Source: Alphaproteobacteria bacterium (GTDB lineage: Bacteria; Pseudomonadota; Alphaproteobacteria; UBA828). Taken from it: a DNA stretch of 64,000 bases. Position numbers and translations under genes: made by a program. Location: positions 55,262 through 119,261 of the forward strand of contig JAJDUK010000005.1 of assembly GCA_022826665.1 (NCBI GenBank), written 5' to 3'. The notes below the pieces were generated by a model. The model made no database searches and had not been told where the DNA came from. It saw only the letters and a list, made by a program, of their open reading frames with translations. The first letter of the stretch is position 1, and the number at the start of each line of letters is the position of its first letter. Shown here piece by piece: positions 35,954 through 63,469 of the stretch.

Positions 35954-36769
35954 ATGTCCAGCCGCATCGCCGACATTCTCGTGCCGCCGCGATGCCGGGA
36001 GATGATCCGCGCCGGCGCGCTCATCGCCATCAACACCAGCGGTGGCAAGGATTCACAGGCGATGACCATCCTGCTGTCGCGGATCGTTCCCCGCGACCAG
36101 ATCGTGGCGGTCCACGCCCCGCTCGGCGAGGTCGAGTGGCCGGGTACGATCGAGCATATCGAGGCAACGCTACCCGCCGGCGTGCCGCTCGTCATGGCGC
36201 CGGTTTCGTCCGGCAAGTCGCTGCTCGACCACGTCGAGGAGCGTGGCATGTTTCCAGGAGCCCGCCAAAGATGGTGTACGGCGGCCCTTAAACGGGGACC
36301 CATCGAGCGCGAACTGCGCCGCTATCTGAAGGCTCATCCCCGCTTCGGCGGGCGCCTCGTCAACGCCATGGGCATGCGCGCGGAGGAAAGCCCGGCACGT
36401 GCCAGGAAGGCGCCGTGGAGGCGCAACGACCGGATGAGCGTCGCGGGCCGCGAGGTCTTCGACTGGCTGCCGGTCTTCGACCTCTCCACGGACGACGTCT
36501 TCCGCGTCATCCACGACGCCGGCCAGTCGCCGCACTGGGCCTACGCCGCCGGCATGTCGCGGCTGAGTTGCAGCTTCTGCATCCTGGCGTCCCGCGCCGA
36601 CCTTCGCCGCGCGGCCGAGCTCCGCCCGGCGCTCTACCGCACCTATGTGGAGCTTGAGCGGCGCATCGATCACACGCTCTCGCCGTCGGGCATCCCCCTG
36701 CCGGAACTGACCGGCGTCTCCCCGGCAACCGCCCGCCACGACGACCCGACCGGCCTGAACAGCATCTGA
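35954..36769 (+). CDS. phosphoadenosine phosphosulfate reductase family protein (PP-loop ATPase)
   Basis: ATG at 35954. Has INTSGGKDS (SGGxDS PP-loop). Confidence 0.7.
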
Positions 36770-36915
36770 TTCCGGCGCCCCGGGCCGCACCGCCGCCCGG
36801 CAGCAGGCTTCCGCCCCATGCCTCCGGACACGACGAGCGGAGCGGCGCTGCCGGCCGGGCGAAGGCCGGGCGCCCGGAGGGCGTGGCCCGCGCCGCTTTC
36901 CCGCAATTCCGGAGC

Positions 36916-37947
36916 ATGCCCATGACGCTTCCCGAGACCATCTCCGCCGACTACACGCTGCGCCCGAGCGAGCTCGCCGAGGTGCTCGCCACCCTGGTCA
37001 AGGCCCGCCAGCCCACCCTGGTCTGGGGACCGCCCGGCGCGGCCAAGTCGATGATCGCCCGGCAGGTCGCCAGCGACCATGGCTACAACTACGTCGACAT
37101 CCGCGCGCTGCTGCTCGATCCCGTCGACCTGAGGGGCATCCCCTGGCGCGACGAGGACGGCCGCACGCGATGGGCGCCGCCGGTGTTCCTGCCGCCCACC
37201 GCCAGCACTGCATTGTGGATGCTCAATCTGGAAGAGCTGGCCTCCTGCGTGCCGATGGTCCAGGCCGCGCTCTACCAGCTCAGCCTGGAGCGCAAGTGCG
37301 GCGAGTACGAGCTGCCCGAGGGCGCCTCGATCATCGCCTGCAGCAACCGCGAGAACGACCGCGGCATCGTCCACCGGATGCCGACCCCGCTCGCTAACCG
37401 CTTCGTCCATCTGGAAATCCGGGTCGACGCGAAAGACTGGTGCGCCTGGGGCGCGGCGAACGGGATCGCCCCGGAAGTGCTGTTCTTCATCGAGCTCGAA
37501 CCGGAGCTGCTTCACCAGTTTCATCCGGAATCGAAGGAGCACGCCTTCCCGAGTCCCCGCAGCTGGGAGTTTGCCAGCAACATCGTCAAGAACCGCAACG
37601 GGCTCGATGCCGAGGTCGAGCGGGCGCTGTTCCGGGGCACGGTGGGCGAGGCCGCGGCGGTCGAGTTTACGTCGTTCCTGAAGGTATGGCGCGAGCTGCC
37701 CCATCCGAGGGCCGTCCTCGACGATCCCGGCAACGCCGACATCCCGGAGAACGCCAGCACGCTGATGGCTCTCTGCGGCTCGCTCTACCGCATGGCCTCC
37801 GACGTCAACCTGGACGCCATCGTGACCTACGCCACCCGGCTCCGGCGCGAGGTGGGCGAGTCGCTCGTCGGCGCCTGCGTGCGCCGCGAGCCCGCGCTCC
37901 AGCGCTCGCCCGCCTTCATCCGCTGGGCGGCGGCGAAAACCCAGTGA
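36916..37947 (+). CDS. MoxR-like AAA+ ATPase (AAA_5)
   Basis: Walker A GPPGAAKS and Walker B/sensor region IIACSNREND. Confidence 0.75.
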   Translation: MPMTLPETISADYTLRPSELAEVLATLVKARQPTLVWGPPGAAKSMIARQVASDHGYNYVDIRALLLDPVDLRGIPWRDEDGRTRWAPPVFLPPTASTALWMLNLEELASCVPMVQAALYQLSLERKCGEYELPEGASIIACSNRENDRGIVHRMPTPLANRFVHLEIRVDAKDWCAWGAANGIAPEVLFFIELEPELLHQFHPESKEHAFPSPRSWEFASNIVKNRNGLDAEVERALFRGTVGEAAAVEFTSFLKVWRELPHPRAVLDDPGNADIPENASTLMALCGSLYRMASDVNLDAIVTYATRLRREVGESLVGACVRREPALQRSPAFIRWAAAKTQ

Positions 37948-37958
37948 AGGAGAACGCC

Positions 37959-38093
37959 ATGCACTGGTCGGTCACGCACCGCCCGGCGGGGGATGCCCCG
38001 TCGCGCAAGTACGCCGTGCGGGCGCCCAGCCTCGACGCGGCCAGGCGGAAGCTCGCCGCCTTCCTCGACGTCCCCGTGTGGACGCTCCGCTAA
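37959..38093 (+). CDS. small hypothetical protein (44 aa)
   Basis: Short ORF MHWSVTHRPAGDAPSRKYAVRAPSLDAARRKLAAFLDVPVWTLR with a GAAGGAG-like RBS upstream. Sits between MoxR and DUF3150 genes. Coding status unproven. Confidence 0.3.
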   Translation: MHWSVTHRPAGDAPSRKYAVRAPSLDAARRKLAAFLDVPVWTLR

Positions 38094-38110
38094 CCCGAGA
38101 GGAGAACCCG

Positions 38111-39025
38111 ATGGACCTCAACCGCGACGCCATGCTGGTCGGGCTGCACATCGCCGCCTGGTCCGGCCGGCTCTACGACCGCCAGGCGAGCGACCACGTC
38201 GCCGTCGCACACGAAGCGAACACCAGCGCCGGGCGCTACAACAAGCGCCTGCTGCCCAAGGCCGCCTTCGCCGCGCTGACCGCCACCATGAGCGAGGCGA
38301 GGACCAAGCACTATGCCAACTCATTGCCCTGGGACGACAAGGGCGCGCGGCTGCTCACCGTCGCCAACTACGAGCACTACACCGAGCTCATGGACGGCCT
38401 GCGCGAGCGCGTGGTCCGCCAGCGCGCCCGCTTCGTCGAGGATTACGACGACTATATCGACCAGGCCCGGCTCGATTTGGGCAAGCTGTTCCGCATCGCG
38501 GACTACCCCTCGAAGGAAGCGCTCCAGGGCAAGTTCGCGATCCGCTACCGCATTACGCCGGTGCCGGACGCCGAGCACTTCATCGCCCAGCTCGCCCCCG
38601 ACGACACCGAGCGGGTGAAGCGCGACATCGAGCGCCACGTCGAGGAACAGCTCCACGGCGCGGTGGGCGATCTCTACCGTCGCTTCGGCGAAGCCGTCGA
38701 GCGGGTCTCCGAGCGCCTGCGCGAGGACGACGACGGCAAGCCGCTGGTGTTCCGGGACACGATGATCTCGAACATCCGGGATCTGGTGGACGTGGTCCCG
38801 CGGCTCAACATCTTCGGCGACGACGAGCTGGCGAAGCTCTGCGAGCAGGTGAAGGAGAAGATCGCGAGCGTCGAGCCGGACGCGCTCAGACCGTCGAAGA
38901 CCTTCGATCCCGCAGCCCGCGCGCAGGTCAAGCGCGACGCGGACGCGCTCGCGGAGAAGTTCGCGGGGTATTTCGGAGGGCGTGCCGAAGAGCCCGCCGC
39001 CGAGCCGGTGCGGGAGGCCGCCTGA
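38111..39025 (+). CDS. DUF3150 domain protein
   Basis: Start MDLNRDAMLVGLHIAAWSGRLYD. Fits the length and context of DUF3150 proteins found with MoxR/VWA pairs. Confidence 0.5.
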   Translation: MDLNRDAMLVGLHIAAWSGRLYDRQASDHVAVAHEANTSAGRYNKRLLPKAAFAALTATMSEARTKHYANSLPWDDKGARLLTVANYEHYTELMDGLRERVVRQRARFVEDYDDYIDQARLDLGKLFRIADYPSKEALQGKFAIRYRITPVPDAEHFIAQLAPDDTERVKRDIERHVEEQLHGAVGDLYRRFGEAVERVSERLREDDDGKPLVFRDTMISNIRDLVDVVPRLNIFGDDELAKLCEQVKEKIASVEPDALRPSKTFDPAARAQVKRDADALAEKFAGYFGGRAEEPAAEPVREAA

Positions 39026-40431
39026 TGGCCGCCCGCGTGCTCGACGAGTCCGCGATCCGGGTCAGCGACTGCGTGACGGAGCTGCTGCGCAAGCAGCCCT
39101 TCTTCGGGAGCCTCGTTCTGCGGCTCCCGCTCCGGCCCGATCCCACCCGCGAGACGCTGGCGACGGACGGCCACGAGATCCGCTATTCGCCCCGCTGGGT
39201 GGCGGAGACCGAGGCGCACCTGATCGAGACCGCGATGGCGCGGGTGGTGATGGCGTGCGCCCTGAAGCATCACACGCGGCGGGGCGAGCGCGACCCCGAA
39301 CGCTGGCAGATGGCCTCGCAGCTCGTCACCCATGCGCTCATCCGCGACGCCGGGTTCACGCTGCCGCCCGACGCCGAAGCCTGGGACGACCTGAGCGTCG
39401 AGCAAGCCTACGACCGGCTGCCGCAACCCGGGGACGACGATTCCGGGGACCATAACGCTCCCTCGAATGCTGCCGGTGCTGGCTCTTCCGCCGCTGCCCA
39501 ATCCTCGTCGGATGGCGGTGACAATGACGCGGACCAGCCGTCCGATCCCGCCGATGACAGGGACCCGCAGGACCCAAGCAGCGGTCAAGACGGCGACGCC
39601 GAAGATGACGGCGGGGATGACCGGAAGCCGCACGACGATGGTGGCCACGAGAACGGCCAGGGCGGGGATGCCGGATCCGATGCACCTCCCAGCCACGATC
39701 CCTCCGGCACCGGCGAGGTCATGGACGCCGGCACGCGGGCGAGCGAGGACGGCAATGAGTCCGGCAAGACGCCGGTGGACGTCGCCGCCGAGGAGCAGGC
39801 CTGGGACGAGGCGATGCACCAGGCCCTCAACATCGCCCGCGCCGAAGGCAAGGTGCCGGGCCGGGTCGAGGAAACGGTGAAGGGCGCTCATGCGAGCAGG
39901 CTCGACTGGCGCACCCTGCTGCGGCGCTACATGACCGATGCCGCGAAGAGCGACTATTCCTGGAGCCTGCCCAACCGGCGCTTCATCGACTCGGGGCTCT
40001 ACCTGCCCTCGATCCGCTCGGAGGGGATGGAGACGATCGCCGTCATCATCGACACGTCGGGCTCGCTGCCGGCGGACACACTGGCCGAGTTCTGGGCCGA
40101 GCTGCGCGAGGTCGCGGCGGAGATCCGGCCCGAGAGCGTCGTCGTGCTCCAGGTCGACGCCGCGCTGCAGGACGCGGCGGAGTACGCGCCCGACGACCTC
40201 CCCGACGAGATCGCGCTGAAGGGACGGGGCGGCACAGACTTCCGCCCGGGCTTCCAGTGGCTCGACGAACAGGGAATCCGGCCCAGCGTGTGCCTCTATT
40301 TCACGGACATGGAGTGCTCCGACTACCCCGAGGCCGAGCCCGGATTCGACACGATCTGGGTGAACTGGGGTCCGCCTCCGTCCGACTGGAACCGCGAGCC
40401 CTGGGGCGAGCGCATCGACATCGCCGCATGA
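39025..40431 (+). CDS. von Willebrand factor type A (VWA) domain protein with acidic low-complexity linker
   Basis: ATG overlaps the stop of the DUF3150 gene. C-terminal IAVIIDTSGS (MIDAS DxSxS-like) and GGTDF. Central D/G/S/E-rich segment of about 120 aa. Confidence 0.65.
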   Translation: MAARVLDESAIRVSDCVTELLRKQPFFGSLVLRLPLRPDPTRETLATDGHEIRYSPRWVAETEAHLIETAMARVVMACALKHHTRRGERDPERWQMASQLVTHALIRDAGFTLPPDAEAWDDLSVEQAYDRLPQPGDDDSGDHNAPSNAAGAGSSAAAQSSSDGGDNDADQPSDPADDRDPQDPSSGQDGDAEDDGGDDRKPHDDGGHENGQGGDAGSDAPPSHDPSGTGEVMDAGTRASEDGNESGKTPVDVAAEEQAWDEAMHQALNIARAEGKVPGRVEETVKGAHASRLDWRTLLRRYMTDAAKSDYSWSLPNRRFIDSGLYLPSIRSEGMETIAVIIDTSGSLPADTLAEFWAELREVAAEIRPESVVVLQVDAALQDAAEYAPDDLPDEIALKGRGGTDFRPGFQWLDEQGIRPSVCLYFTDMECSDYPEAEPGFDTIWVNWGPPPSDWNREPWGERIDIAA

Positions 40432-40472
40432 CGTCCCAACGACACCGCCGCACCGTTCGAGGAGCAACCGCC

Positions 40473-41129
40473 ATGCAGACCGTTCACCCGTCTCCCGAAG
40501 CCATCCGCCTCGCCATGGCGCGGATCGAGCGCGCCATGGAAGTCCACGGCGGCGACCGGGAGGCTCCTATGGACTGGGGGATCGTCCACCGTCACGAGTG
40601 CCGCACCACCGCCTGCCACGGCGGCTGGTACGCGCTCGGCCGCCTGATGGACCACCCCGCAATCCGCTGGCGCCACGACGAAACCTTCTACAAGGACCCC
40701 GGCGAGATCATGATGGCATTGAGGCGGGATGGGACCGTCACCCATCTCATGTACCACGAGGGCGCGCATATGCTCGCGCGCGACCTCGGCTTCATGAATG
40801 TCCCCGCGTGCAAGGGCTGGGCGGAGCGCCACCCGCAGATCTGGGGCAACCGCCACGGCGAGCGGATGTGCGCCGGCGACGGGGCGCTCGCCTTCGGCAA
40901 GCCGCCCTTTGCGCCGGTCCTGGTAAGCGAGATCATCGCGTGGTGGCGCGCGGTCGCGGACCGGCTCGAAGCGGCGATCCCGGTTCACCACAACCGGCCG
41001 GCCGGTATCGCGGCTCTTGAGCGCCACGATGCGCACACCCGTGAGACCGTCGCGGTCGAGCCTTGCGCGGGCGGCTACCGGATCGTCCGGCGGCCCCGCC
41101 CGATAGACCTGCTCTCACTCCAGTCCTGA
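40473..41129 (+). CDS. hypothetical protein (218 aa)
   Basis: In-frame ATG at 40473 inside ORF 40257..41129. No motif recognised. Confidence 0.35.
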   Translation: MQTVHPSPEAIRLAMARIERAMEVHGGDREAPMDWGIVHRHECRTTACHGGWYALGRLMDHPAIRWRHDETFYKDPGEIMMALRRDGTVTHLMYHEGAHMLARDLGFMNVPACKGWAERHPQIWGNRHGERMCAGDGALAFGKPPFAPVLVSEIIAWWRAVADRLEAAIPVHHNRPAGIAALERHDAHTRETVAVEPCAGGYRIVRRPRPIDLLSLQS

Positions 41130-41295: not shown

Positions 41296-43752
41296 ATGAA
41301 CCACATCGCCCCCAGGGCCGAGCCGCTCATCCGGGAGATCCCGCTGAGCCGGCTCGCGCTCGCCCCCGAGAACGTCCGCAAGACCCCGCCCGATCCCCGG
41401 GCCGATGCGGAGCTCAAGGCCTCCATCACCGCCCTCGGGCTGCTGGAGAATCTGATCGTCCGCATTGACGAGCCCGCCGAGAATCCCGGATCGGGTCCGG
41501 GACAGGCGGCTGACGAGCGCTTTGCAGTGGTGGCCGGCGGGCGCCGACTCAAGGCCATGCAGGCGCTGGTCGAGGACAAGGTGCTGGATGCCGACCATCC
41601 GGTGCCCTGCTTGGTCAGGTCCGGCGACGTCGAGCCCGGCGAGGTCTCGCTCGCCGAGAACGTCGTGCGCATCGCCATGCATCCCGCCGACCAGGTGGTC
41701 GCGTTCACGAAGCTCGCCGACGCCGGCCAGTCGGTTTCCGCCATCGCGGTGCGTTTCGGCGCCTCCGAGCGCATCGTCGAGCAGCGGCTGCGCCTCGGCA
41801 ACGCCGCCCCGGAGCTGCTGGACGCCTACCGGGCGAACGAGATCGACCTCGAAGTCCTGAAGGCTTTCGCCGTCACCGCCGACCGCGAGAGCCAGATGGC
41901 GGTCTGGGAACAGGTCGCGGCCCAGCCCTACCGGCCCTCGGCCGCGCAGGTGAAACGCCTGCTCACCGAGGAGCGGGTGCCCGGCGGCACGGCGATCGCC
42001 CGCTTCGTCGGCGTGGACGCCTACGAGGCCGCCGGCGGCCAGATCATGCGCGACCTGTTCGCCGACGAATACGAGCACGGCGTCTGGTTCGAGGACCCGG
42101 TGCTGCTGGAGAAGCTGGCGGCCGACAAGCTTCAGGCGGCCGCCGACGAGCTGACGACGCGCTGGAAGTGGGCCGCCCCCATGATCGAGGTCGCCTGGGA
42201 CGACACCGCCCGCTGCGGCCGCATCGAGCCGCAGCCGGCGGAGCGCACTCCCGAGGAGGAGGCCGAAATCGGCAAGCTGGAAGCCCGGCAGGCCGAACTC
42301 GCCGAGCTCGACGACGACGAGTGGACCGCGGAGCTGGTCTCGGAAGCCGAGGCCATCGAGACCCGCCTCGACGAGATCGAGGGCGGGATCGAGGCCCGCG
42401 CGGTCTTCCGGCGCGAGGATCTCGCGATGGCGGGCTGCGTAGTCACCGTCGCCCAGGACGGCTCGCTCCAGGTCATTCAGGGCCTGGTGAAGCCCGAGGA
42501 CATGCCGAAGCGGACGGAGGCGGGCGAGACCGGATCGGAACCCGGCGACGGTCACGCCCCGGATGCCTCGACCCACGGCGTTCACACCGCCGGTCATGCC
42601 GTTCACTCCGCCGCCCCGTCCGTCTCCACGCCGATAGCGCCGCCGAAGGACCCCGAGGCCGAGGCGCGCAAGGAGGCCGGCGTCGGGATCGGCCTCGCCG
42701 ACGATCTGCGCTCGATCCGTACCGCACTGGTCAAGGCGAAGCTGGCCGGCGACTTCGAGGCGGCCTTCGACCTCGCGCTGTTCCAGATGGGCCGCGCGGT
42801 GTTCACGCCGGGCCATCACGACCACGCCCTCGACATCGCGGTCAAGGAAACCCCGGACCGGCCCAATACCCGGATGAACGACGCCGACTTCGCGGACTGG
42901 TCGCAGGGCGAGGCGATGCTGGCGGACCGCTCGCACCTGTCGTTCGACTGGCTGGAGATCGAGGACGACGGCGAATCCTTCGCGGCGCTGCGGGCCTTGC
43001 CCCAAGCCGAGAAGGAGGCGCTCTTCGCGGCCTGCGTCGCGAGGACGGTGAAGGGCCAGCTCGCCTTCGAGCCCCAGGCCCGGCCCGAGCTCGAAGCCAC
43101 GGTGGCCCGGCTCGACATCGACTTCGCGGCCCATGTCCGGCCCACTGCCGATATGCTGTGGTCGCGGATCAACAAGAGCCGCGTCCTCGACATCGCCCGC
43201 ACGGTGTTCGGCCTGGCCTGGGCGTCGGCGCGGTCCAAGTACAAGAAGCCCGCACTGGCCGAAGCGATGGAGGCCGCCTTCGCCGCCGGGGACCCACCGG
43301 TCGGCGTGACCAGGGCGATGCACGCCGCCGCGCTCGCCTGGGTCCCGCCCGGCTTCGCGGCATTCGACACGGGCCGGACGGTCGGTGATCCCGGGGATGC
43401 GGCGACTCCCACCGCCGCGACCGCACGGGCCGGGGACACCGCGCCCCCGGAACTCGCGCATCCGTCCGCCGACTCCGGGACCGATCCGGCGGAGGCGGCG
43501 CCGGCCGGCAACGGCCATGCGACGGAGGCCGCTCCGGAACCGTCGAACGGTGTGACGGCAAATGCCGGAAACGGCGCCGCCGACACGATCGACCCTGGCC
43601 CGGACGCCGATCGCGGCGATACCCGGGAGGCCGATCCCGACCCGACCGTCGCAGGCGGGCCGGACGGCATCGCGGCGACCGGCCCGGTCAACGGCCACGA
43701 CGCGCCGCCGGACCCGATGGACATCCCCGAGTTCCTCCGCCGCGTCCAGTAG
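41296..43752 (+). CDS. large ParB/Srx-fold nuclease-like protein (ICE/plasmid type)
   Basis: 818-aa ORF. N-terminal ParB-N block LAPENVRK...FAVVAGGRRLKAMQAL (GxRRxxA). Long C-terminal low-complexity tail. Confidence 0.7.
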   Translation: MNHIAPRAEPLIREIPLSRLALAPENVRKTPPDPRADAELKASITALGLLENLIVRIDEPAENPGSGPGQAADERFAVVAGGRRLKAMQALVEDKVLDADHPVPCLVRSGDVEPGEVSLAENVVRIAMHPADQVVAFTKLADAGQSVSAIAVRFGASERIVEQRLRLGNAAPELLDAYRANEIDLEVLKAFAVTADRESQMAVWEQVAAQPYRPSAAQVKRLLTEERVPGGTAIARFVGVDAYEAAGGQIMRDLFADEYEHGVWFEDPVLLEKLAADKLQAAADELTTRWKWAAPMIEVAWDDTARCGRIEPQPAERTPEEEAEIGKLEARQAELAELDDDEWTAELVSEAEAIETRLDEIEGGIEARAVFRREDLAMAGCVVTVAQDGSLQVIQGLVKPEDMPKRTEAGETGSEPGDGHAPDASTHGVHTAGHAVHSAAPSVSTPIAPPKDPEAEARKEAGVGIGLADDLRSIRTALVKAKLAGDFEAAFDLALFQMGRAVFTPGHHDHALDIAVKETPDRPNTRMNDADFADWSQGEAMLADRSHLSFDWLEIEDDGESFAALRALPQAEKEALFAACVARTVKGQLAFEPQARPELEATVARLDIDFAAHVRPTADMLWSRINKSRVLDIARTVFGLAWASARSKYKKPALAEAMEAAFAAGDPPVGVTRAMHAAALAWVPPGFAAFDTGRTVGDPGDAATPTAATARAGDTAPPELAHPSADSGTDPAEAAPAGNGHATEAAPEPSNGVTANAGNGAADTIDPGPDADRGDTREADPDPTVAGGPDGIAATGPVNGHDAPPDPMDIPEFLRRVQ

Positions 43753-43769
43753 ACGGCATCGCACAGGCG

Positions 43770-43810
43770 CCCCGCCCGGCACCCTCCCGCCGGGCGGGGC
43801 GTTTTTTCTT
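43770..43810 (+). terminator. rho-independent terminator downstream of parB-like gene
   Basis: Perfect 11-bp stem ccccgcccggc/gccgggcgggg with an 8-nt loop, followed by cGTTTTTTCTT. Confidence 0.6.
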
Positions 43811-43834
43811 CCGCAATTCCATGGAGGTCCGTCC

Positions 43835-45595: not shown

Positions 45596-46074
45596 GCCGG
45601 CCCTGGACCGTTCAGGTCGGCTACAGCGCGCACTACTGCAACACCGTCACGGTGGGGGCCGACACGCTCGAGGAAGCCCTCGAGAAGGCCATCGCAACCG
45701 CCAACGAGGACGCTGCGGGCTGGCGCTCGACTGACCATTGCTCGGATTCGTTCGTCGACGCCGTCTGCGAAGGCTCCGATGCCGATCCGTGGGACCGCGA
45801 CGCCACGCTGCCGGTCCCGGCGCGCTTCTCCGAGCATGGCGAGCCGCCGGTGGTGACCCTTGCCGGACCCCTCCCGCCGGGCGCCGTCCGGGTCTCCGGC
45901 GGCAGGGCGACGCTCCGCTTCGAGACCGAAGCCGGCACGATCACGGCGGAAGTGCGCGACCCGCCCCTTCCGCCCACAAACAAGCCGCTGGTCACGGTCT
46001 CCGTCGGACCCGACGGCAAGCCCCGGGTCGAGGTCGAGGGCGGCAGCGCCAGGGTGCACATTCTCGACGGCTGA
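45592..46074 (+). CDS. hypothetical protein (160 aa)
   Basis: ATGA overlap with the upstream gene. No motif. Confidence 0.35.
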   Translation: MSRPWTVQVGYSAHYCNTVTVGADTLEEALEKAIATANEDAAGWRSTDHCSDSFVDAVCEGSDADPWDRDATLPVPARFSEHGEPPVVTLAGPLPPGAVRVSGGRATLRFETEAGTITAEVRDPPLPPTNKPLVTVSVGPDGKPRVEVEGGSARVHILDG

Positions 46075-46234
46075 TCCGGCCGCCTGCCGGTCGCCGCCGC
46101 CGATCCTTCCTCACCGATGCCCGTCCCCGCTCCGCCCGGAGCGGGGGCCGGCATGCGTCCGGACGAGGCGGGGCCGGGGCGCGGAAGCGTCCCGGTCCCG
46201 CATGTCCTGCATCCGGAAACAGGAGGTCCAGCTC

Positions 46235-46450: not shown

Positions 46451-46493
46451 TCCGGCGGGGCGCTTCGGATCCACTCCCTTGGAGGACGTCGCC

Positions 46494-47234: not shown

Positions 47235-47281
47235 CAGGCCGCAGCGATCCCCTCCCTCTCTTTCCCGCGAGGAACCCCACC

Positions 47282-49713: not shown

Positions 49714-49855
49714 CGAGGCGCATCGATCGAAGTTCACCCCGCCAATTCCGGACTTTCATCTTGCCGTTGGCGGTCTTCGCTCCCCACAAATCCGCCGCCG
49801 ACCGATCATTGACAGCGCCGTACTCCGTCGGGCAATCCATCGCCGCTCTCGCCCA

Positions 49856-56307: not shown

Positions 56308-56317
56308 GTCCGGCCCC

Positions 56318-58582: not shown

Positions 58583-59119
58583 ATGCCGACATTGCGATAT
58601 GCGGGGATTGGGGCGCGTGCGACGCCGGTGGCCGTGCTGGCGGACATGACTGTGCTGGCGGGATGGCTGGCCCGGACCGGCTGGCATCTTTCGAGCGGTG
58701 GGGCGAATGGAGCCGACACTGCGTTCGCCGAGGGTACGCCCGCCGGGCAGAGGACGATCTGGCTGCCGTGGCGGGACTGTAACGGGAATCGGGGGACGGA
58801 CTGCCGGGTGTTGTCGGCTGAGGCGATGGCGGAGTGCATCGAGATCGCGGCGCCCCTGCATCCGGCGTGGGAGCGGTGTTCGCCGGCCGTCCGCATGCTG
58901 CATGCCAGGAACGCGGCGGTGTTGCTTGGCGACACGCTGGGCCGGCCCGTCGATGCAGTCGTGTGCTGGAGCGAACGCGGCGCGGTTACCGGAGGCACTG
59001 GCATGGCTATCCGTATCGCCGAGGCCCGCGGCATCCCGGTGCTGAACCTGGGATCGATGACCCCGCGTGCCGTCTGCGAGCGCCTGGCCGCAATCCGCCG
59101 CGCCGTCCATCGGTCATAG
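58583..59119 (+). CDS. SLOG superfamily (DprA/Smf/LOG-like Rossmann fold) protein
   Basis: YAGIGARATP...LSSGGANGADTAFAEG (GGAxGxD) with IWLPW. ATG at 58583 by frame arithmetic. The 414-aa antisense ORF 58081..59325 is judged spurious. Confidence 0.55.
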   Translation: MPTLRYAGIGARATPVAVLADMTVLAGWLARTGWHLSSGGANGADTAFAEGTPAGQRTIWLPWRDCNGNRGTDCRVLSAEAMAECIEIAAPLHPAWERCSPAVRMLHARNAAVLLGDTLGRPVDAVVCWSERGAVTGGTGMAIRIAEARGIPVLNLGSMTPRAVCERLAAIRRAVHRS

Positions 59120-59564: not shown

Positions 59565-60026
59565 ATGCCCTTCGGAAAGAATCACGCGGAACTGGTCGGC
59601 CGCCTCGGCGACGACGTCACCGTCAACCACCTCAGGAACGGCGGCCGCGTCGCCAACATGAGCATCGCGACCGACGAGTCGTACATCGACAAGAACTCGG
59701 GCGAGAAGGTCGACAAGACCGAGTGGCACCGGGTCGTCACCTTCCAGGACGGGCTGATCGACATGCTCCAGAGGCACGCGACGAAGGGCCGCTTGATCCA
59801 CGTCGAGGGCAAGCTCCAGACTCGGCGCTGGAAGAAGGACGGCGAGGACTCCTGGCGCTTCTCGACCGAGATCCTCGTCGTGCCGGGCCACAGGGTGCAG
59901 TTCTACGACAAGCCCAACGGCAGCAGCGCGCCGGCCGCGGACGCCCAGGCACCCGCGAACGGCACGGACATGCCGGACGGCGGCGCCCCGGCGCAGACCG
60001 GCGACATCGAGGACCCGCCCTTCTAG
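59565..60026 (+). CDS. ssb: single-stranded DNA-binding protein
   Basis: OB-fold blocks GRLGDDVTVNHLRNGGRVANMSIATDESY, KTEWHRVVTF and VEGKLQTRRWKKDGEDSWRFSTEIL. Gly/Pro/Asp-rich tail ending DIEDPPF (acidic tip). Confidence 0.85.
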   Translation: MPFGKNHAELVGRLGDDVTVNHLRNGGRVANMSIATDESYIDKNSGEKVDKTEWHRVVTFQDGLIDMLQRHATKGRLIHVEGKLQTRRWKKDGEDSWRFSTEILVVPGHRVQFYDKPNGSSAPAADAQAPANGTDMPDGGAPAQTGDIEDPPF

Positions 60027-60191
60027 GCGCTTCCCGCCCATTCCTCCTCCCTCCCGCCTCGGGGGCCGGCGCTTCGGCGCCGGTCCCCCCTTTTGCAGCC
60101 GAACCGGAGTCCCCCAATGTCCGTTGGGCGCGCGGCGACGGAGGCGGAGAGGAGCGCCGGAGGGGCGTTCCATTGCCCAGGGAGAGAGAGC

Positions 60192-60776
60192 ATGCGCGAC
60201 AACACCGAGAGCGTCTTCGCCCGGGGGGCCGTCATCGTCCCCGACTTCGTCACCCCGGCCGAGGAGGAGCGCATCCTGCTCCGCATCGGCGCCGCGCCCT
60301 GGCTCACCGAGCTGCGACGGCGCGTCCAGCATTACGGCTACCGCTACGACTACCGCGGCGCCAGCCGCCCGGTCCCCGCCGCGCCGTTTCCGCGCTGGGC
60401 CGGGGTCATGGCGGACCGGCTGCGGGACCGCTTCGGGAGCGCGCTGCCGGTGCAGTGCATCGTCAACGAGTACCGCCCCGGCCAGGGGATCGGCATGCAC
60501 GCCGACCATCGCGACTTCGGCGACGTCGTCGCCTCGCTGTCGCTCGCCGCCGACTGGCCGATGCGCTTCCGGCCGCGCTCCGTCCGCCCCTACGCCCGCG
60601 ACGGCCTGCCGGGCGACGAGGTCGCCGTGCTGCCCCGCCGCTCGGTCCTGGTCCTCGCGGGCGAGGCGCGCCGGGACTGGATGCACGGCATCGACCGCGC
60701 CGACACCGCCGGCGCGGCCGCCACCCGCGTCTCCGCCACCTTCCGGACGCTCGCGTCCGGCGCCGGCCGGCCGTGA
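60192..60776 (+). CDS. 2OG-Fe(II) oxygenase, AlkB-like
   Basis: IVNEYRPGQGIGMHADHRD (H-x-D) with a downstream His in WMHGIDR and RxS-type 2OG anchoring (RVSATF). Confidence 0.6.
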   Translation: MRDNTESVFARGAVIVPDFVTPAEEERILLRIGAAPWLTELRRRVQHYGYRYDYRGASRPVPAAPFPRWAGVMADRLRDRFGSALPVQCIVNEYRPGQGIGMHADHRDFGDVVASLSLAADWPMRFRPRSVRPYARDGLPGDEVAVLPRRSVLVLAGEARRDWMHGIDRADTAGAAATRVSATFRTLASGAGRP

Positions 60777-60826: not shown

Positions 60827-61909
60827 ATGATCCGCTTCACCCAGGGCGACCTCTTCGCCTCCGGCTGCGAGGCTCTCGTCAATCCCGTCAACTGCGTCGG
60901 CGTGATGGGCAGGGGGCTCGCCCTCCAGTTCCGGCACCGCTTCCCGGCCAACTACGAGGCCTATCGGCACGCCTGCGCGCGCCGCGAGGTCCGGCCCGGG
61001 CTCTGCTTCGTCTTCGACGCCGGCGCCGGGCCGGCGCGCTTCGTCGTCAACTTCCCAACCAAGCGCCACTGGCGCGACCGCAGCCGCATTGAGGACATCG
61101 CCGCCGGGCTCGACGACCTCGCCGGCATCCTCCGCCGCCGCGCCATCGGCTCCGTCGCGATCCCGCCGCTCGGCTGCGGCCTGGGCGGACTGCCCTGGCC
61201 CGCCGTCCGCTCGCTGCTGGTCGACCGCCTCGCATCCTGCTCCGGCGTCTCGATCATCATCTTCGAGCCTGGCGGACCGGAGCCGAGGCGCGCTTGCGGC
61301 GGGGCGAAGCGCGGCAGGGCCGGAGGGAGTCCGCCGCCGGCAACGGAGGATGACGGAATGCGTATCTACCACCGCGACGAGGTTTGCCCGTTCCGGTTTA
61401 CCCGGGCGGCCTGGGGCGAATTCAGCAATTTCGCGCCGCTGACGGCGCCGATCGCCGCCGGCCCGTGGACGTTTGCGACGTCCGAGCACCTGTACCAGGC
61501 GGCGAAGTTCGGCGCCGCCCCGGCGGTGCAGCGCCGGATCGCCGGCGCGCCGACGGCGCGCGAGGCGGCCGCCATCGGGCGCGGCGAGCGCACCGGCGTC
61601 GATCCCCGCTGGAACGAGCAGCGGGTGAACGTCATGCGCTGGGTGCTGCGCATGAAGCGCGAGACCAACGCCGCCGCGATCGATGCCGCCCTCGCCGCGA
61701 CCGGCGAGCGCGCCATCGTCGAGGTCTCGACCCGCGACCCCTGGTGGGGCGCCAGGCCGGACGGCGACCGCTATCGCGGCGCGAACGTGCTCGGCCGGCT
61801 CTGGATGGAGCTCCGCCAGCAGCTGTGCGACGGCGATCCCGCCGCGCGCGCCGCCGCGTGGGCCGGGCGCATCCGCGTCGGCCGGCTGGCCGATGCGCCG
61901 CGCGCCTGA
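60827..61909 (+). CDS. macro domain fused to NADAR (YbiA-like) domain protein
   Basis: N-terminal LFASGCEALVNPVNCVGVMGRGLALQF (macro glycine loop). C-terminal EFSNFAP...SEHLYQAAKF (NADAR ExxYQxxK block). AGGAG RBS 9 nt upstream of ATG 60827. Confidence 0.7.
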   Translation: MIRFTQGDLFASGCEALVNPVNCVGVMGRGLALQFRHRFPANYEAYRHACARREVRPGLCFVFDAGAGPARFVVNFPTKRHWRDRSRIEDIAAGLDDLAGILRRRAIGSVAIPPLGCGLGGLPWPAVRSLLVDRLASCSGVSIIIFEPGGPEPRRACGGAKRGRAGGSPPPATEDDGMRIYHRDEVCPFRFTRAAWGEFSNFAPLTAPIAAGPWTFATSEHLYQAAKFGAAPAVQRRIAGAPTAREAAAIGRGERTGVDPRWNEQRVNVMRWVLRMKRETNAAAIDAALAATGERAIVEVSTRDPWWGARPDGDRYRGANVLGRLWMELRQQLCDGDPAARAAAWAGRIRVGRLADAPRA

Positions 61910-62051
61910 CCGGCGCGCTCGCCGGCCTTCTTCTTTCTGACCGTCCTGGCCTCGCGACCCCGCTTCGCGCGGCCCGCTCGCCCTCCTGCGCCGGCCGGAG
62001 GGGAGGCCGGCCGGTATCGGGCATCTCGCTCGCCTTGGAAGGAAGTCCCGC

Positions 62052-63053
62052 ATGCAGCACCAACCGTCTCCCGCCGCCGGCATCGCCGCGGCGCTCGCAG
62101 CGCGCGCCGAGGAGGTGTGCAGGCAATATCTACCGCATGGCCGTCGCCAGGGCCGCTACTGGATCTGCGGCGACCTCGACGGCGCTCGCGGACGCTCGCT
62201 CTTCGTCCGCCTCTCCGGCTCCGGCAAGCCCGGTGGGTGGACGGATGCAGCAACGGGGCAGCACGGCGATCTGCTCGACCTGATCCGCTACCGCTCAGGA
62301 GCGCCGACGCTGCGCGCGGCGCTCGACGAGGCGCGGCGCTTCCTCGCCCTGCCGACTTCGCCGGCGACGGCCTCGGATGCGCCCTACGACGCGACCGAGG
62401 CGGCGCGCCGCCTGTGGCGGCGCTGCCGCGCCATCGACGGCAGCCACGCCGAGCGGTATCTCCACGCCCGGGGGCTGTCGCGCTGCCGCTTCGCGACGCT
62501 GCGCTTCCATCCCGAGCTTCGCTATCGCGAAGGCTCGTCCGTGCGCCGGTTACCGGCGCTGGTCGCCGCCGTCACCGGCGGCGACGGCGCCATCCTCGGC
62601 GTGCAGCGCACCTGGCTCGACCCGCGCTCCCCCGCCAAGGCGGGCGTCGCTACGCCGCGCAAGGCGCTCGGCCGCATCCACGGCCTCGCGGTGCGCTTCG
62701 GCGCGCCCTCCGACATCGCTCCGCTCGTCGTCGGCGAGGGCATCGAGACGGTGCTCTCGCTGGTCACCGCCGTGCCGGAGATCACGGCTGCAGCAGCGCT
62801 CTCGGCCGGGAGCCTCGGCGCGTTCGCGCCTCCCTCCGGCCTCGCGCGGCTGGTGATCGCCCGCGACAACGACGAGGACGGCGCGCTCGCGGCCGAGCGC
62901 CTCGCCCGGCGCTGCGCGCGGGCGGGCATCGCCGCCACCGTCATCGTGCCCGCCGGCAACGACTTCAACGACGACCTCGTCGCGCTCGGCTCAGCGGCGC
63001 TCTGCGCCCGCTTCGCGCCGCTGTTCCGCTCCGCCTGCGCCTCCGGCTCATAG
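62052..63053 (+). CDS. toprim domain protein (DUF7146/primase-like, ICE type)
   Basis: VVGEGIETVLS (toprim Glu) and IARDNDEDG (DxD). Confidence 0.65.
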   Translation: MQHQPSPAAGIAAALAARAEEVCRQYLPHGRRQGRYWICGDLDGARGRSLFVRLSGSGKPGGWTDAATGQHGDLLDLIRYRSGAPTLRAALDEARRFLALPTSPATASDAPYDATEAARRLWRRCRAIDGSHAERYLHARGLSRCRFATLRFHPELRYREGSSVRRLPALVAAVTGGDGAILGVQRTWLDPRSPAKAGVATPRKALGRIHGLAVRFGAPSDIAPLVVGEGIETVLSLVTAVPEITAAAALSAGSLGAFAPPSGLARLVIARDNDEDGALAAERLARRCARAGIAATVIVPAGNDFNDDLVALGSAALCARFAPLFRSACASGS

Positions 63054-63133
63054 GCCGGACCGATATCCCGCTCCGGTGGAGGAAGAGAAGAGCGGAGGGT
63101 CGGGCAAGCCGACCCGAGGAGTGGAGGGAGTCC

Positions 63134-63469
63134 ATGAGAGCCATCGTCAATCTGAAGCACGAGCCGGCGCTGCGCGACGAGTTCGAATACGCGCTTGTCG
63201 TCGATAACACCGTGCTGATCGACCGCCGCACCAGGTGGGGCAACCCGTTCAGAATCGGCGAAGACGGGTCGCGGGATGAGGTGATCGCCCGCTACCGCGC
63301 GCATCTATGGCAACACATCCAGGCAGGCGACGTTTCGCTGGAAGAGCTCGCAGAGCTCGACGGGTGCTGGCTGGCCTGTTGGTGCGAGCCGCTGCCCTGT
63401 CATGGAGATGTGCTCGCCAAGGCGGCGGCGTGGGCCTCCGGGGTGTTGGCCGATCGGAAGGGTTCGTGA
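63134..63469 (+). CDS. DUF4326 domain protein
   Basis: RWGNPF...WLACWCEPLPCHGDVL Cys/His cluster typical of DUF4326. In-frame ATG at 63134. Confidence 0.55.
   Translation: MRAIVNLKHEPALRDEFEYALVVDNTVLIDRRTRWGNPFRIGEDGSRDEVIARYRAHLWQHIQAGDVSLEELAELDGCWLACWCEPLPCHGDVLAKAAAWASGVLADRKGS

What the first reader, a model, noticed from the sequence alone, without database searches (positions are those of the whole stretch)
35954..63469. Leading-region-like gene set of a conjugative element, enriched for ssDNA protection and DNA-damage or anti-defence functions
Seen in sequence: Contiguous same-strand genes include a PAPS-reductase-like PP-loop protein, MoxR AAA+ with DUF3150 and VWA, an 818-aa ParB-like protein, a Bergerat-fold protein, RadC (JAB), an SRAP (MCGRF abasic-site shield), an orphan N6-MTase::SNF2 helicase giant, SLOG, SSB, an AlkB-like dioxygenase, macro::NADAR, a toprim protein and DUF4326.

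Established knowledge: ICE and plasmid leading regions typically encode SSB, anti-restriction methylases and ParB-like proteins that are expressed early in the recipient.

Inference: No relaxase or T4SS is in the window, so the element either continues beyond 64000 or is a remnant.
Basis: partly seen in the sequence, partly recalled or inferred. Interest (0 to 1): 0.6.

Follow-up and report, generated by a model that had tools for sequence, protein, structure and literature searches.

The report
Leading region of a chromosomal conjugative element
This block of about 27 same-direction genes is very probably the first DNA that an integrated conjugative element injects into a new host, and it carries proteins that coat, copy and chemically repair single-stranded DNA or disarm host defences; the kind is known, this family is not.

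Summary
The gene set is real: 13 of the 15 domain calls hold. DUF3150 and the Bergerat fold are only sub-threshold.

The element continues past the window. The same contig carries a TrwC/MOBF relaxase, a coupling protein and the end of an F-type TraG 6.5-12.6 kb beyond base 64000. Relatives add TraU, TrbC, TraN, TraF and TraH.

About 1.9 kb past the window end lies a 5-bp hairpin followed by GCGTCGGGTGT|G. This copies the F-plasmid nick site (hairpin + GCGTGGGGTGT|GG). It recurs in 43 of 81 related loci, always on the relaxase-coding strand.

Its orientation makes the window's minus strand the transferred strand. That strand enters from about 65.87 kb leftwards, so the finding's genes are the first ~27 ORFs to enter, and the transferred strand is their template. 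In relatives, 143 of 143 homologues sit after the nick in that orientation.

Upstream of the first leading gene are a 118-nt structured element and a roughly 400-nt hairpin. F has the same layout at Frpo2-ssb, and the 118-nt element is linked to F through IncN repeats.

This is a new member of a known kind. Its notable cargo is a set of ssDNA-lesion reversal genes, including an orphan DarG-macro::NADAR fusion.

The parts
19362..20753 (+). Tyrosine integrase (probable true start near 19581). It is the likely distal (attL-side) end of the element.
   Evidence: Arm-DNA-bind_3, Phage_int_M and Phage_integrase domains. Relatives L061 and L077 have an integrase at the far end of the module in the same orientation. 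No att repeat was found.
35954..36769 (+). PAPS-reductase-like PP-loop protein
   Evidence: PF01507 E=5.7e-9. GC3 frame switches to the + strand at ~35960.
36883..37947 (+). MoxR/CobS-like AAA+ ATPase
   Evidence: phrog_1297 ATPase 2.4e-87. Weak bpMoxR/AAA Pfam hits.
38078..39025 (+). Unknown protein; DUF3150 only sub-threshold
   Evidence: Top Pfam hit DUF3150 E=0.09, 12.5 bits against a cut-off of 24.9.
39000..40431 (+). Metallopeptidase-like + VWA-like protein (DUF2201_N, DUF2201); start approximate
   Evidence: E=8.5e-41 and 6.7e-23.
40428..41129 (+). Unknown protein; start approximate
   Evidence: Coding frame by GC3. No family hit.
41296..43752 (+). 818-aa ParB-like protein
   Evidence: PRTRC_parB 1.7e-18; phrog_7783 1.2e-66 and ParB-like PHROGs. 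F's leading region also has a 652-aa ParB-like gene.
43562..45595 (+). Large protein (up to 677 aa) with a weak GHKL/Bergerat signal
   Evidence: HATPase_c E=0.0045, below the cut-off. No NCBIfam or PHROG hit.
45592..46450 (+). Two small unknown ORFs (45592-46074 and ~46079-46450)
   Evidence: GC3 frames. No family hits.
46323..47234 (+). RadC-like JAB protein
   Evidence: PF04002 4.3e-39.
47231..47692 (+). DUF6573 protein; start approximate
   Evidence: PF20213 3.2e-27.
48066..48758 (+). SRAP (HMCES/YedK-type abasic-site shield)
   Evidence: PF02586 2.6e-73. N-terminus is MCGRF.
49069..50902 (+). Two unknown proteins (49069-49713 in phrog_5162; 49856-50902)
   Evidence: phrog_5162 5.8e-38. 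The homologue on Rhodobacterales plasmids is annotated 'antitoxin of toxin-antitoxin stability system'.
51462..55946 (+). 1494-aa orphan N6-adenine methyltransferase fused to a Strawberry-notch-type helicase
   Evidence: AAA_34 8.5e-108, Helicase_C_4 7.5e-92, weak MTS. NPPF at residue 231. Homologues sit next to toprim and DUF2493 genes on alphaproteobacterial conjugative plasmids.
56566..57747 (+). Tle1-like DUF2235 alpha/beta hydrolase, lower G+C; probably inserted cargo
   Evidence: PF09994 9.2e-78. GC3 0.71 against ~0.9 for the neighbours.
58583..59119 (+). DprA-like (SLOG/Rossmann) ssDNA recombination-mediator homologue
   Evidence: phrog_768 6.6e-48.
59565..60026 (+). Single-strand DNA-binding protein
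   Evidence: PF00436 1.5e-21. Acidic tail ...DIEDPPF.
60117..60776 (+). AlkB-like 2OG-Fe(II) dioxygenase
   Evidence: PF13532 2.7e-21. AlkB::macro fusion proteins exist among homologues of the next gene.
60827..61909 (+). Orphan DarG-type macrodomain fused to NADAR (two DNA de-ADP-ribosylases)
   Evidence: Macro 7e-21 and NADAR 1e-22. PDB 5M31/5M3E DarG macrodomain 1.1e-43 and YbiA 2B3W 4.5e-17. No DarT gene adjacent. The fusion is absent from 72,556 plasmids and, among the 120 best homologues, is seen only in close relatives and one actinobacterial protein.
62052..63053 (+). DUF7146-Toprim protein (candidate primase-like enzyme)
   Evidence: PF23639 1.6e-33, Toprim_3 1.1e-23. No solved relative.
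63134..63469 (+). DUF4326 protein
   Evidence: PF14216 1.9e-24.
63505..63621 (-). Copy e2 of a conserved 118-nt structured non-coding element (structure read on the minus, transferred strand). Copy e1 lies beyond the window at L001 13254-13370.
   Evidence: 42 copies in 28 sources (the window, L001 and 26 relative loci), all in gene orientation. Outer stem complementary in 37/37 copies with 4 pair types. C:G-closed GNA-triloop hairpin with 7 stem variants. T-strand more stable in 35/37. Homologous to repeats in IncN (1e-9) and, through them, F (7e-9) leading regions.
63650..64000 (-). Long imperfect hairpin (continues to ~64060, L001 ~11600-12010) abutting the start codon of the first leading gene (YAcAr, L001 12047-12973). 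Frpo-like by position and shape.
   Evidence: T-strand fold z=-8.0 and -6.4. Arms conserved in 15 relatives, with 7 pairs changed on both sides and conserved G-T pairs. Same layout as F Frpo2-ssb. No sequence similarity to known Frpo and no sigma-70 hexamers.

Best explanation
The block 35954-63469 is most of the leading region of an integrative conjugative element (ICE) that has a MOBF (TrwC-type) relaxase and an F-type mating apparatus.

The element runs from an integrase at ~19.4 kb to beyond 76 kb.

The relaxase is predicted to nick the window's minus strand at 5'-CTGCATCAGGGATGCGTCGGGTGT|GAATCC-3', at about window-equivalent 65,868 (L001 13818|13817). It stays attached to the 5' end and pilots that strand into the recipient.

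The DNA therefore enters in this order: YAcAr, DUF4326, toprim, DarG-macro::NADAR, AlkB, SSB, DprA-like, methylase-helicase, SRAP, RadC, ParB-like, VWA/MoxR, PAPS-reductase. Cargo and the integrase follow. The relaxase and T4SS genes enter last.

All these genes lie on the + strand, so the incoming strand is their template. They could be transcribed before or as soon as the complementary strand is made.

Inferred roles of the products:
- coat the ssDNA (SSB, DprA-like);
- prime its complement (toprim);
- pre-methylate it (orphan N6 methylase-helicase);
- reverse lesions that recipients or the environment inflict on ssDNA: alkylation (AlkB), abasic sites (SRAP), thymine- and guanine-linked ADP-ribose from DarT2- and DarT1-type toxins (macro::NADAR).

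A conserved 118-nt element plus a long hairpin upstream of the first gene is the likely single-strand promoter or priming signal.

Shown by computation: gene content, linkage to the relaxase and T4SS, the conserved nick-like motif and its strand, orientation, and structure conservation.

Inferred: actual nicking, order and timing of expression, and every biochemical role.
For: Continuation of the element. The contig KELL22-1 scaffold_1317 matches the window at all but 2 of 11,949 bases. It carries a TrwC relaxase (1012 aa), a T4CP and a TraG_N C-terminus. Relative L005 has TraU, TrbC, TraN, TraF, TraH and TraG upstream of the T4CP.

Family. 80 chromosomal relatives were recovered. The module lies downstream of and convergent to the relaxase.

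Nick site. Hairpin + GCGT[C/G]GGGTGT|G occurs in 43 of 81 loci on the relaxase-coding strand, against 1 hit on the other strand in 1.76 Mb. Three stem versions covary: GCATC/GATGC, GCACC/GGTGC and GCAG/CTGC. The F nick is GCAAAAACTTGTTTTTGC-GTGGGGTGT|GGTGC, with TraI bound to the 5' phosphate (PMC3074121).

Neighbours of the nick. An RHH-like gene (top Pfam hit NikA-like, E=0.02) and three CCACCGATCGGTGG palindromes flank the site.

Position and strand. All 143 homologues in nick-bearing loci lie after the nick with the T-strand as template, and none lies between the relaxase and the nick. YAcAr is the first recognised gene in 36 of 37 loci.

F has the same geometry: nick on the minus strand at 66167 and leading genes on the + strand, including an orphan methylase, SSB and a 652-aa ParB-like gene.

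Frpo-like unit.

Leading-region concept and the T-strand rule: PMC11541004.

DarG and NADAR functions.
Against: - No experiment: the nick site is predicted from similarity to F only.
- 38 of 81 relatives show no motif within the 10 kb available.
- The start of the tra operon, where F keeps its oriT, could not be read for this element or its relatives, so a second or different oriT is not excluded.
- The relaxase operon points towards the predicted oriT, unlike F and R388.
- No sigma-70 -35/-10 hexamers were found in the hairpin, and it has no sequence similarity to known Frpo.
- Intergenic regions inside 35954-63469 show no strong ssDNA structure, so early ssDNA transcription of the distal genes is doubtful.
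- att sites were not found, so integrity of the element is unproven.
- The far part of the block (~30 kb from the nick) stretches the usual meaning of 'leading'.
Confidence: 0.8

Rival explanations
1. The block is a late-transferred (lagging) accessory module. The true oriT lies at the start of the F-type tra operon, as in F, roughly 20 kb or more (my estimate from the usual F-type gene order) upstream of the coupling protein. The + strand is then transferred, and these genes enter just before the relaxase with the transferred strand as their sense strand.
For: The T4SS, T4CP and relaxase genes form one co-oriented block ending in the relaxase, as in F. The start of that operon was never seen, because the contig ends there and loci are limited to 10-kb flanks. 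38 of 81 loci lack the motif within range.
Against: The F-identical nick sequence with its hairpin sits between the relaxase and the module in 43 loci, strand-consistently, next to an RHH gene. No such motif occurs in the 10 kb upstream of any relaxase. Gene orientation (143/143) and the Frpo-like unit fit the leading model and have no explanation in this one.
Confidence: 0.08
2. The block is a maintenance, defence or DNA-repair island that merely sits inside or next to an ICE (or an ICE remnant). It acts in the resident host, and its position relative to oriT has no meaning.
For: The ParB-like, MoxR/VWA and PAPS-reductase genes have no known establishment role. The region also holds probable cargo (a Tle1-like hydrolase; a low-G+C Dcm/Vsr block at 25-35 kb). 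Intergenic regions within the block lack ssDNA structure. att sites were not found.
Against: Order, orientation and linkage to the nick are conserved across a family whose relaxases are only 67-89% identical. SSB, an orphan methylase and a large ParB-like gene are the same classes found in F's leading region. Several enzymes act on ssDNA lesions: DarT modifies ssDNA (PMC5179494), and AlkB and SRAP prefer ssDNA by established knowledge.
Confidence: 0.1
3. The conserved 118-nt element and the long hairpin act as RNA (a 5' leader, terminator or small RNA), or as double-stranded operator arrays like the ArdK-bound CUP repeats of IncN. They would not act as ssDNA signals.
For: IncN CUP repeats are known ArdK-binding regulatory sites (PMC6289460). 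Copy e2 lies 36 nt after a stop codon, like a terminator or insulator. Covariation alone cannot tell RNA from ssDNA.
Against: The loops are GNA triloops closed by C:G on the transferred strand, which is the extraordinarily stable DNA mini-hairpin motif (PMC13037366, PMC3201870). On mRNA-sense RNA they would read UUC/UGC. Conserved G-T pairs in the T-strand become C-A mismatches in the sense strand. The T-strand is more stable in 35 of 37 copies. No Rfam family matches.
Confidence: 0.25

Closest known systems
Leading region of the F plasmid (oriT-proximal ssb / psiB / orphan methylase / yfjB-type ParB-like genes with Frpo ssDNA promoters)
   Same: - A MOBF relaxase and an F-type T4SS.
- A nick sequence identical in 9 of 10 bases after a hairpin ending in GC. 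Many relatives are identical to F.
- Leading genes co-oriented so that the T-strand is their template.
- SSB, an orphan methylase and a large ParB-like protein.
- A long hairpin abutting the first codon of a leading gene, preceded by a homologous ~100-nt element.

   Different: - The element is integrated in a chromosome and has an integrase.
- The tra operon and relaxase converge on oriT instead of diverging from it.
- No PsiB, ArdA or Hok.
- Instead it carries AlkB, SRAP, DarG-macro::NADAR, DprA-like, RadC, toprim and MoxR/VWA.
- The hairpin has no sequence similarity to Frpo and no recognisable -35/-10.
Anti-defence islands in leading regions (Samuel et al. 2024, Nature, PMC11541004)
   Same: Anti-defence genes, methyltransferases and SSB are enriched in the first ~30 ORFs from oriT. 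All are transcribable from the T-strand, with Frpo-like elements. The IncN-type repeat related to our 118-nt element occurs inside their 'Frpo*' candidates.
   Different: Their main text does not mention AlkB, SRAP, NADAR or RadC, and 'macro' occurs only in reference titles (macrolide). They defined oriT by similarity to known oriTs within 3.5 kb of the relaxase. Here the nick lies 0.7-9.8 kb beyond the 3' end of the relaxase gene.
IncN (pKM101/R46) leading region with CUP repeats
   Same: A MOBF relaxase. A repeated ~110-nt element in leading-region intergenic gaps, in gene orientation: 4 copies in NZ_CP116915.1, E=1e-9 with the ICE model. SSB and DUF932 genes are transcribed towards oriT.
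   Different: MPF_T rather than F-type T4SS. The CUPs are described as ArdK operators. I could not check that the copies coincide with the published CUP coordinates.
ParB / Strawberry-notch methylase-helicase / toprim / DUF2493 modules of alphaproteobacterial conjugative plasmids and Tn4371/ICEMlSym-like elements
   Same: Same gene families, order and co-orientation: RadC ... Sbno methylase-helicase, toprim, DUF2493/YAcAr.
   Different: Different relaxase (MOBP/DUF3363) and MPF_T. Only ~72% DNA identity, and only in the helicase. oriT was not examined there.
DarTG toxin-antitoxin / anti-phage systems
   Same: The macrodomain is DarG-type (E=1e-43 to PDB 5M31). NADAR is the antitoxin class of DarT1.
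   Different: No DarT (DUF4433) partner. The two antidote domains are fused in one orphan protein. The location is a leading region, which suggests counter-defence rather than self-immunity.

Membership tests
Leading region of a conjugative element | Lies next to oriT on the side that enters the recipient first (3' of the nick on the transferred strand) | tested here: met
   The predicted nick at L001 13818|13817 on the minus strand places YAcAr and the whole block 3' of the nick. The nick is a sequence prediction, not an assay.
Leading region of a conjugative element | Genes oriented so that the transferred strand is the template | tested here: met
   ~25 of 27 ORFs are on the + strand while the T-strand is the minus strand. 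143 of 143 homologues in relatives follow the rule.
Leading region of a conjugative element | Carries SSB, orphan methylase, anti-defence or establishment genes | tested here: met
   SSB, an NPPF methylase-helicase, a ParB-like protein and an orphan DarG-macro::NADAR.
Leading region of a conjugative element | Single-strand promoters (Frpo/ssi) upstream of leading genes | tested here: inconclusive
   A conserved long hairpin plus a 118-nt element lie upstream of the first gene, with T-strand bias and the F-like layout. There are no -35/-10 hexamers and no similarity to known Frpo.
Leading region of a conjugative element | Early (zygotic) expression in the recipient | not testable with these tools
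   Needs mating experiments.
Integrative conjugative element, MOBF / MPF_F | Relaxase with a TrwC domain plus a helicase | tested here: met
   P0001, 1012 aa, with PF08751, AAA_30 and UvrD_C_2. At most 41% identical to plasmid MobF relaxases.
Integrative conjugative element, MOBF / MPF_F | Coupling protein and F-type mating-pair genes | tested here: met
   T4CP and TraG_N C-terminus on the same contig. TraU, TrbC, TraN, TraF, TraH and TraG in relative L005. The rest of the T4SS of this very element was not seen, because the contig ends.
Integrative conjugative element, MOBF / MPF_F | Integrase and flanking att repeats in a chromosome | tested here: inconclusive
   An integrase at 19362-20753 and housekeeping genes at 1-16.5 kb. 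Relatives lie on Mb-sized chromosomal contigs. No att repeat or tRNA target was identified.
F-type (MOBF) oriT | Hairpin immediately 5' of GTGGGGTGT|G on the transferred strand | tested here: met
   GCATC-AGG-GATGC + GTCGGGTGT|G here. 21 relatives carry exactly GCGTGGGGTGTG. The stem covaries. F reference: PMC3074121.
F-type (MOBF) oriT | Cleavage by the cognate relaxase and cis-acting mobilisation | not testable with these tools
   Biochemical and genetic assay needed.
DarTG toxin-antitoxin system | DarG-type macrodomain or NADAR antitoxin | tested here: met
   5M31/5M3E 1.1e-43 and 2B3W 4.5e-17.
DarTG toxin-antitoxin system | Adjacent DarT (DUF4433) toxin gene | tested here: not met
   The neighbours are AlkB and toprim, and no DUF4433 hit occurs in the region. 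It is therefore not filed as a DarTG system.

The most novel reading that the evidence does not exclude
This ICE family devotes the first kilobases it injects to a lesion-reversal kit for single-stranded DNA: AlkB, SRAP, DprA-like, SSB, and a unique fusion of the two known DNA de-ADP-ribosylase antidotes (DarG-macro for thymine, NADAR for guanine). The kit would be driven or primed by an ancient T-strand structured element shared with the F and IncN plasmids.

If true, chemical modification of incoming ssDNA (DarT-type ADP-ribosylation, alkylation, base excision) is a significant barrier to conjugation. Orphan NADAR and macro proteins would then be anti-defence factors. The 118-nt GNA-triloop element would be a previously unrecognised conserved component of Frpo/ssi units across MOBF elements.
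Probability: 0.3. Interest if true: 0.7.

Novelty: new member of a known kind. Interest (0 to 1): 0.5.

Why it matters
It shows that the 'anti-defence leading region' rule, established mostly on enterobacterial plasmids, also holds in an uncharacterised and abundant family of chromosomal elements. These elements occur in uncultured Alphaproteobacteria, often in several copies per genome. In them oriT sits downstream of the relaxase gene.

It gives a concrete physiological context for NADAR and macro hydrolases found outside DarT operons: protecting transferred ssDNA. PMC11125620 flags their role as an open question.

It points to a ~110-nt structured DNA element next to the Frpo hairpins that is conserved from F and IncN plasmids to these ICEs. 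That element could be tested as a priming or promoter signal.

Tried and rejected
- A megablast of 25 kb against plasmids found only ~72% matches in the helicase, so no close plasmid relative exists.
- The relaxase has no plasmid relative above 41% identity.
- Looking up the aminotransferase gene to find an empty integration site failed: the protein is not on record.
- tRNA scans of relatives for an integration target found none. att sites remain unknown.
- A sigma-70 promoter scan of the nick-proximal 10.8 kb found 0 sites.
- Rfam gave only a sub-threshold Flavo-1 hit, 29.9 bits against a gathering score of 42.
- The ICE element model did not reach significance on F directly (E=0.05-0.18). 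The link needed IncN as an intermediate.
- The ICE long hairpin has no similarity to published Frpo/ssi sequences.
- NCBIfam and Pfam gave nothing for 40257-41129, 45592-46450, 49856-50902, 56038-56307 and 59221-59454.
- I first considered that the R388-like palindromes CCACCGATCGGTGG mark the nick hairpin. I rejected this because the distance to any GTCT-like site was wrong and the F-like motif is far better conserved.
- No structure prediction or fold search was run, because none was needed for the verdict.

Full report
**1. What is in the window**

The window is ~70% G+C.

- Bases 1-16.5 kb hold ordinary metabolic and transport genes: enoyl-CoA hydratase, carboxyl transferase, ABC-type binding proteins and permeases.
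- A tRNA-Arg(TCT) lies at 16858-16934.
- A P4-type tyrosine integrase lies at 19362-20753.
- Between 20.9 and 35.9 kb there is mixed cargo. It includes an integrase fragment and a 52% G+C block with Dcm, Vsr and GHKL/HEF_HK/receiver proteins.
- From 35954 to 63469, GC3 frame analysis shows an almost unbroken series of + strand genes.

**2. The observation**

- PAPS-reductase-like protein.
- MoxR/CobS-like AAA+ ATPase (PHROG 2e-87).
- Metallopeptidase + VWA-like protein (DUF2201_N/DUF2201).
- 818-aa ParB-like protein.
- RadC.
- SRAP (N-terminus MCGRF).
- 1494-aa NPPF methylase fused to a Strawberry-notch-type helicase.
- SSB with a DIEDPPF tail.
- AlkB-like dioxygenase.
- Macro::NADAR.
- DUF7146-Toprim.
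- DUF4326.

Two calls are only sub-threshold: DUF3150 (E=0.09) and the Bergerat fold (HATPase_c E=0.0045).

**3. The element continues beyond the window**

The toprim protein is encoded on an ENA metagenome contig (KELL22-1 scaffold_1317, 47.9 kb). Over the 11,949 shared bases it differs from the window at 2 positions.

In window orientation that contig continues as follows:

- YAcAr (+);
- 0.85 kb of non-coding DNA;
- a further 0.4 kb of non-coding DNA;
- a 102-aa RHH-like gene (+);
- three unknown genes;
- on the minus strand, a 1012-aa TrwC/MOBF relaxase, a 702-aa coupling protein and the C-terminus of a TraG_N protein, where the contig ends.

A relative with 86% relaxase identity, on a 3.5-Mb contig, shows TraU, TrbC, TraN, TraF, TraH and TraG directly upstream of the coupling protein. 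The mating apparatus is therefore F-type.

A scan of species-representative genomes returned 80 loci with relaxases 67-89% identical. All are from MAG chromosomes, mostly Alphaproteobacteria, and often several come from one genome.

In these loci, homologues of YAcAr, DUF4326, toprim, macro/NADAR, AlkB, SSB, DprA-like and the methylase-helicase lie downstream of and convergent to the relaxase.

**4. Where transfer starts**

Aligning the non-coding DNA upstream of the RHH gene in 19 relatives exposed a conserved block.

Read on the relaxase-coding strand, it is a 5-bp hairpin followed at once by GCGT[C/G]GGGTGT G.

- The motif occurs in 43 of 81 loci on that strand, against one hit on the other strand in 1.76 Mb.
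- It lies 0.7-9.8 kb past the relaxase stop.
- The hairpin stem exists in three mutually compensating versions: GCATC/GATGC (30 loci), GCACC/GGTGC (5) and GCAG/CTGC (8).

The F-plasmid nick region is GCAAAAACTTGTTTTTGC-GTGGGGTGT|GGTGC. TraI becomes linked to the 5' phosphate (PMC3074121; also PMC5422253).

Many relatives carry exactly GCGTGGGGTGTG. Our element has GCGTCGGGTGTG, at L001 13828-13817 on the minus strand.

The neighbouring small protein has NikA-like (an RHH relaxosome accessory protein) as its best, sub-threshold, Pfam match. Three CCACCGATCGGTGG palindromes lie between it and the nick.

I take this as the oriT. It remains a prediction.

**5. Consequence for the finding**

With the nick on the window's minus strand at about 65,868, the 5' end leads and the strand enters towards lower coordinates.

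The ~27 ORFs of the finding, preceded by YAcAr, are then the first to enter. They lie on the + strand, so the transferred strand is their template.

This is the rule reported for leading-region anti-defence, methylase and SSB genes (PMC11541004).

In the 43 nick-bearing relatives:

- all 143 homologues lie after the nick in that orientation;
- none lies between the relaxase and the nick;
- YAcAr is the first recognised gene in 36 of 37 loci.

F itself shows the same geometry. Its nick is on the minus strand at 66167 and its leading genes are on the + strand. They include an orphan methylase, an antirestriction gene, SSB, a 652-aa ParB-like protein and PsiB.

**6. Single-strand signals**

Among the 16 intergenic regions tested from 36.8 kb to the nick, only the two nearest the nick are strongly structured:

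- 63470-64097: z = -6.4, or -8.0 with the tool's own shuffles;
- 65025-65878: z = -3.2, or -4.1 for a slightly longer stretch.

In both, the transferred strand is 20-27 kcal/mol more stable than its complement.

They contain two features.

(a) A 118-nt element.

- It is present twice: e2 at window 63505-63621 and e1 at L001 13254-13370.
- 42 copies occur in 28 sources (the window, L001 and 26 relative loci), always in gene orientation.
- Its outer stem GGCG-NN...NN-CGCC is complementary in 37 of 37 copies, with four different pair combinations.
- An inner hairpin has seven stem variants. All are complementary, and all close a GAA or GCA loop with C:G on the transferred strand.
- That is the d(C-GNA-G) mini-hairpin known to be exceptionally stable in DNA (PMC13037366, PMC3201870).
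- The transferred strand folds better in 35 of 37 copies.

(b) A long imperfect hairpin.

- It spans L001 ~11600-12010 and ends about 37 nt before the YAcAr start codon.
- Its arms are conserved in 15 relatives while the tip varies.
- 7 pairs keep pairing after changes on both sides, and several conserved G-T pairs would be C-A mismatches in the sense strand.

**7. Link to known Frpo units**

The 118-nt element matches 152 PLSDB plasmids, 139 of them conjugative.

An IncN plasmid has four copies in the intergenic gaps of its leading region, all in gene orientation (ICE model E=1e-9). These probably fall within the CUP repeats described for pKM101 (PMC6289460). I could not check the coordinates.

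A model built from the IncN copies hits F at 58094-58175 (7e-9) and 63493-63563 (6e-7). Each site lies about 100 nt upstream of a ~320-nt inverted repeat.

At ssb, that inverted repeat is the Frpo2 fragment used by Samuel et al. Their construct equals F 58355-58642 apart from one base in a T run, and ends at the ssb ATG.

The IncN model also hits two of their low-certainty 'Frpo*' candidates.

The layout 'conserved element, then long hairpin, then first codon of a leading gene' is thus shared by F and this ICE.

Three cautions apply. The ICE hairpin has no sequence similarity to known Frpo. It has no sigma-70 hexamers. No Rfam family matches. I therefore call the unit Frpo-like in position and shape only.

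**8. What the genes probably do (inference)**

- SSB and the DprA-like protein bind ssDNA.
- The toprim protein may prime the complementary strand.
- The orphan NPPF methylase-helicase may pre-empt restriction.
- AlkB and SRAP act on alkylated and abasic ssDNA (established knowledge of those families).

The macrodomain is DarG-type: E=1e-43 to PDB 5M31/5M3E, identified as the T. aquaticus DarG macrodomain in PMC5179494.

- DarT ADP-ribosylates thymidine in ssDNA, and DarG removes the modification.
- NADAR is the antitoxin that removes guanine-linked ADP-ribose made by DarT1 (PMC11543638).

No DarT gene is nearby, so this is an orphan double antidote.

The fusion is absent from 72,556 plasmids, where only the macro half matches, usually beside DUF4433. 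Among the 120 best hits in a 5.8-billion-protein collection, it appears only in about nine close relatives and one actinobacterial protein. AlkB::macro fusions also occur there.

The role of NADARs outside DarT operons is stated to be unclear (PMC11125620).

**9. Rivals**

The main rival is that the true oriT sits at the unseen start of the tra operon, which would make this block late-transferred. It cannot be excluded without the missing sequence. It leaves the F-identical motif, the orientation rule and the Frpo-like unit unexplained.

A resident-host repair or defence island, and an RNA or operator role for the structured elements, remain partly open.

**10. Verdict**

It is a new member of a known kind: a leading region of a MOBF/F-type ICE. 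Three features stand out:

- oriT lies beyond the 3' end of the relaxase gene;
- the cargo is biased towards reversal of ssDNA lesions;
- a structured DNA element is shared with the F and IncN leading regions.

Noticed in passing
window 25000-35300: A low-G+C block (52% against 70%) inside the element. It holds Dcm methylase (26617-27669, -), a Response_reg_2 protein (27669-29438, -), a 987-aa HATPase_c_3 + HEF_HK + HATPase_c protein (29428-32391, -), Vsr (32649-33203, +) and a weak patatin-like ORF. It looks like a recently acquired defence or modification island.
   Followed up: partly
window 24510-24866 and 22448-24235: A C-terminal fragment of a second tyrosine integrase (118 aa) sits next to a 595-aa DUF924 + HATPase_c_2 fusion protein. 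This hints at a nested or decayed island between the integrase and the leading block.
   Followed up: no
window 56566-57747: A Tle1-like (DUF2235) alpha/beta hydrolase with a clearly lower GC3 (0.71) than its neighbours lies in the middle of the leading block. It is probably inserted cargo.
   Followed up: no
L001 13932, 14006, 14060 (window-equivalent ~65,983-66,123): Three copies of the palindrome CCACCGATCGGTGG lie between the predicted nick and the RHH-like gene. One exact copy is found at the same place in eight relatives (L009-L015 and L020). They are likely binding sites of the RHH protein.
   Followed up: partly
L007-L086: Several MAG genomes carry many copies of this ICE family. For example, contig CBDDOM010000002.1 yields five loci, OZ243972.1 three, and CBDHDG01 contigs six. 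A few hits come from MAGs labelled Gammaproteobacteria, Longimicrobiales or Thermodesulfobacteriota.
   Followed up: no
proteins P0166, P0174, P0198, P0200, P0202, P0226, P0159: Among homologues of the macro::NADAR protein there are AlkB(2OG-FeII_Oxy_2)::macro fusions, and a protein combining the Strawberry-notch C-terminal domain with NADAR. These domains are separate neighbouring genes in the window.
   Followed up: no
PLSDB plasmids; L087 26525-31534; L088 8094-8175 and 13493-13563: The 118-nt non-coding element matches 152 plasmids, 139 of them conjugative, from Escherichia, Klebsiella, Salmonella, Burkholderia, Acidovorax, Massilia and others. Up to 5 copies occur per plasmid. In IncN and F the copies sit in leading-region intergenic gaps.
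   Followed up: partly
L001 11472-11530 (minus strand; window 63523-63581): A sub-threshold Rfam match to Flavo-1 RNA (29.9 bits, gathering score 42, E=0.009) falls inside element copy e2 on the transferred-strand orientation. It is probably chance.
   Followed up: no
window 16512-18015: Next to tRNA-Arg(TCT) lie a small HTH (Xre-type) gene (16512-16817, -) and a 150-aa retroviral-type aspartyl protease ORF (17563-18015, +), in a stretch of lower G+C (61%). This may be a remnant of another island on the other side of the tRNA.
   Followed up: no
L001 17554-18327 (minus strand): The gene immediately downstream of the relaxase has a near-threshold NYN-domain match (E=1.9e-4, 22.4 bits against a cut-off of 24.2). 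It recurs at 88-94% identity after the relaxase in two relatives (L005, L015).
   Followed up: no
window 35341-35900 (minus strand): An ORF with a SEC-C motif and TPR repeats overlaps the long upstream extension of the PAPS-reductase ORF.
   Followed up: partly
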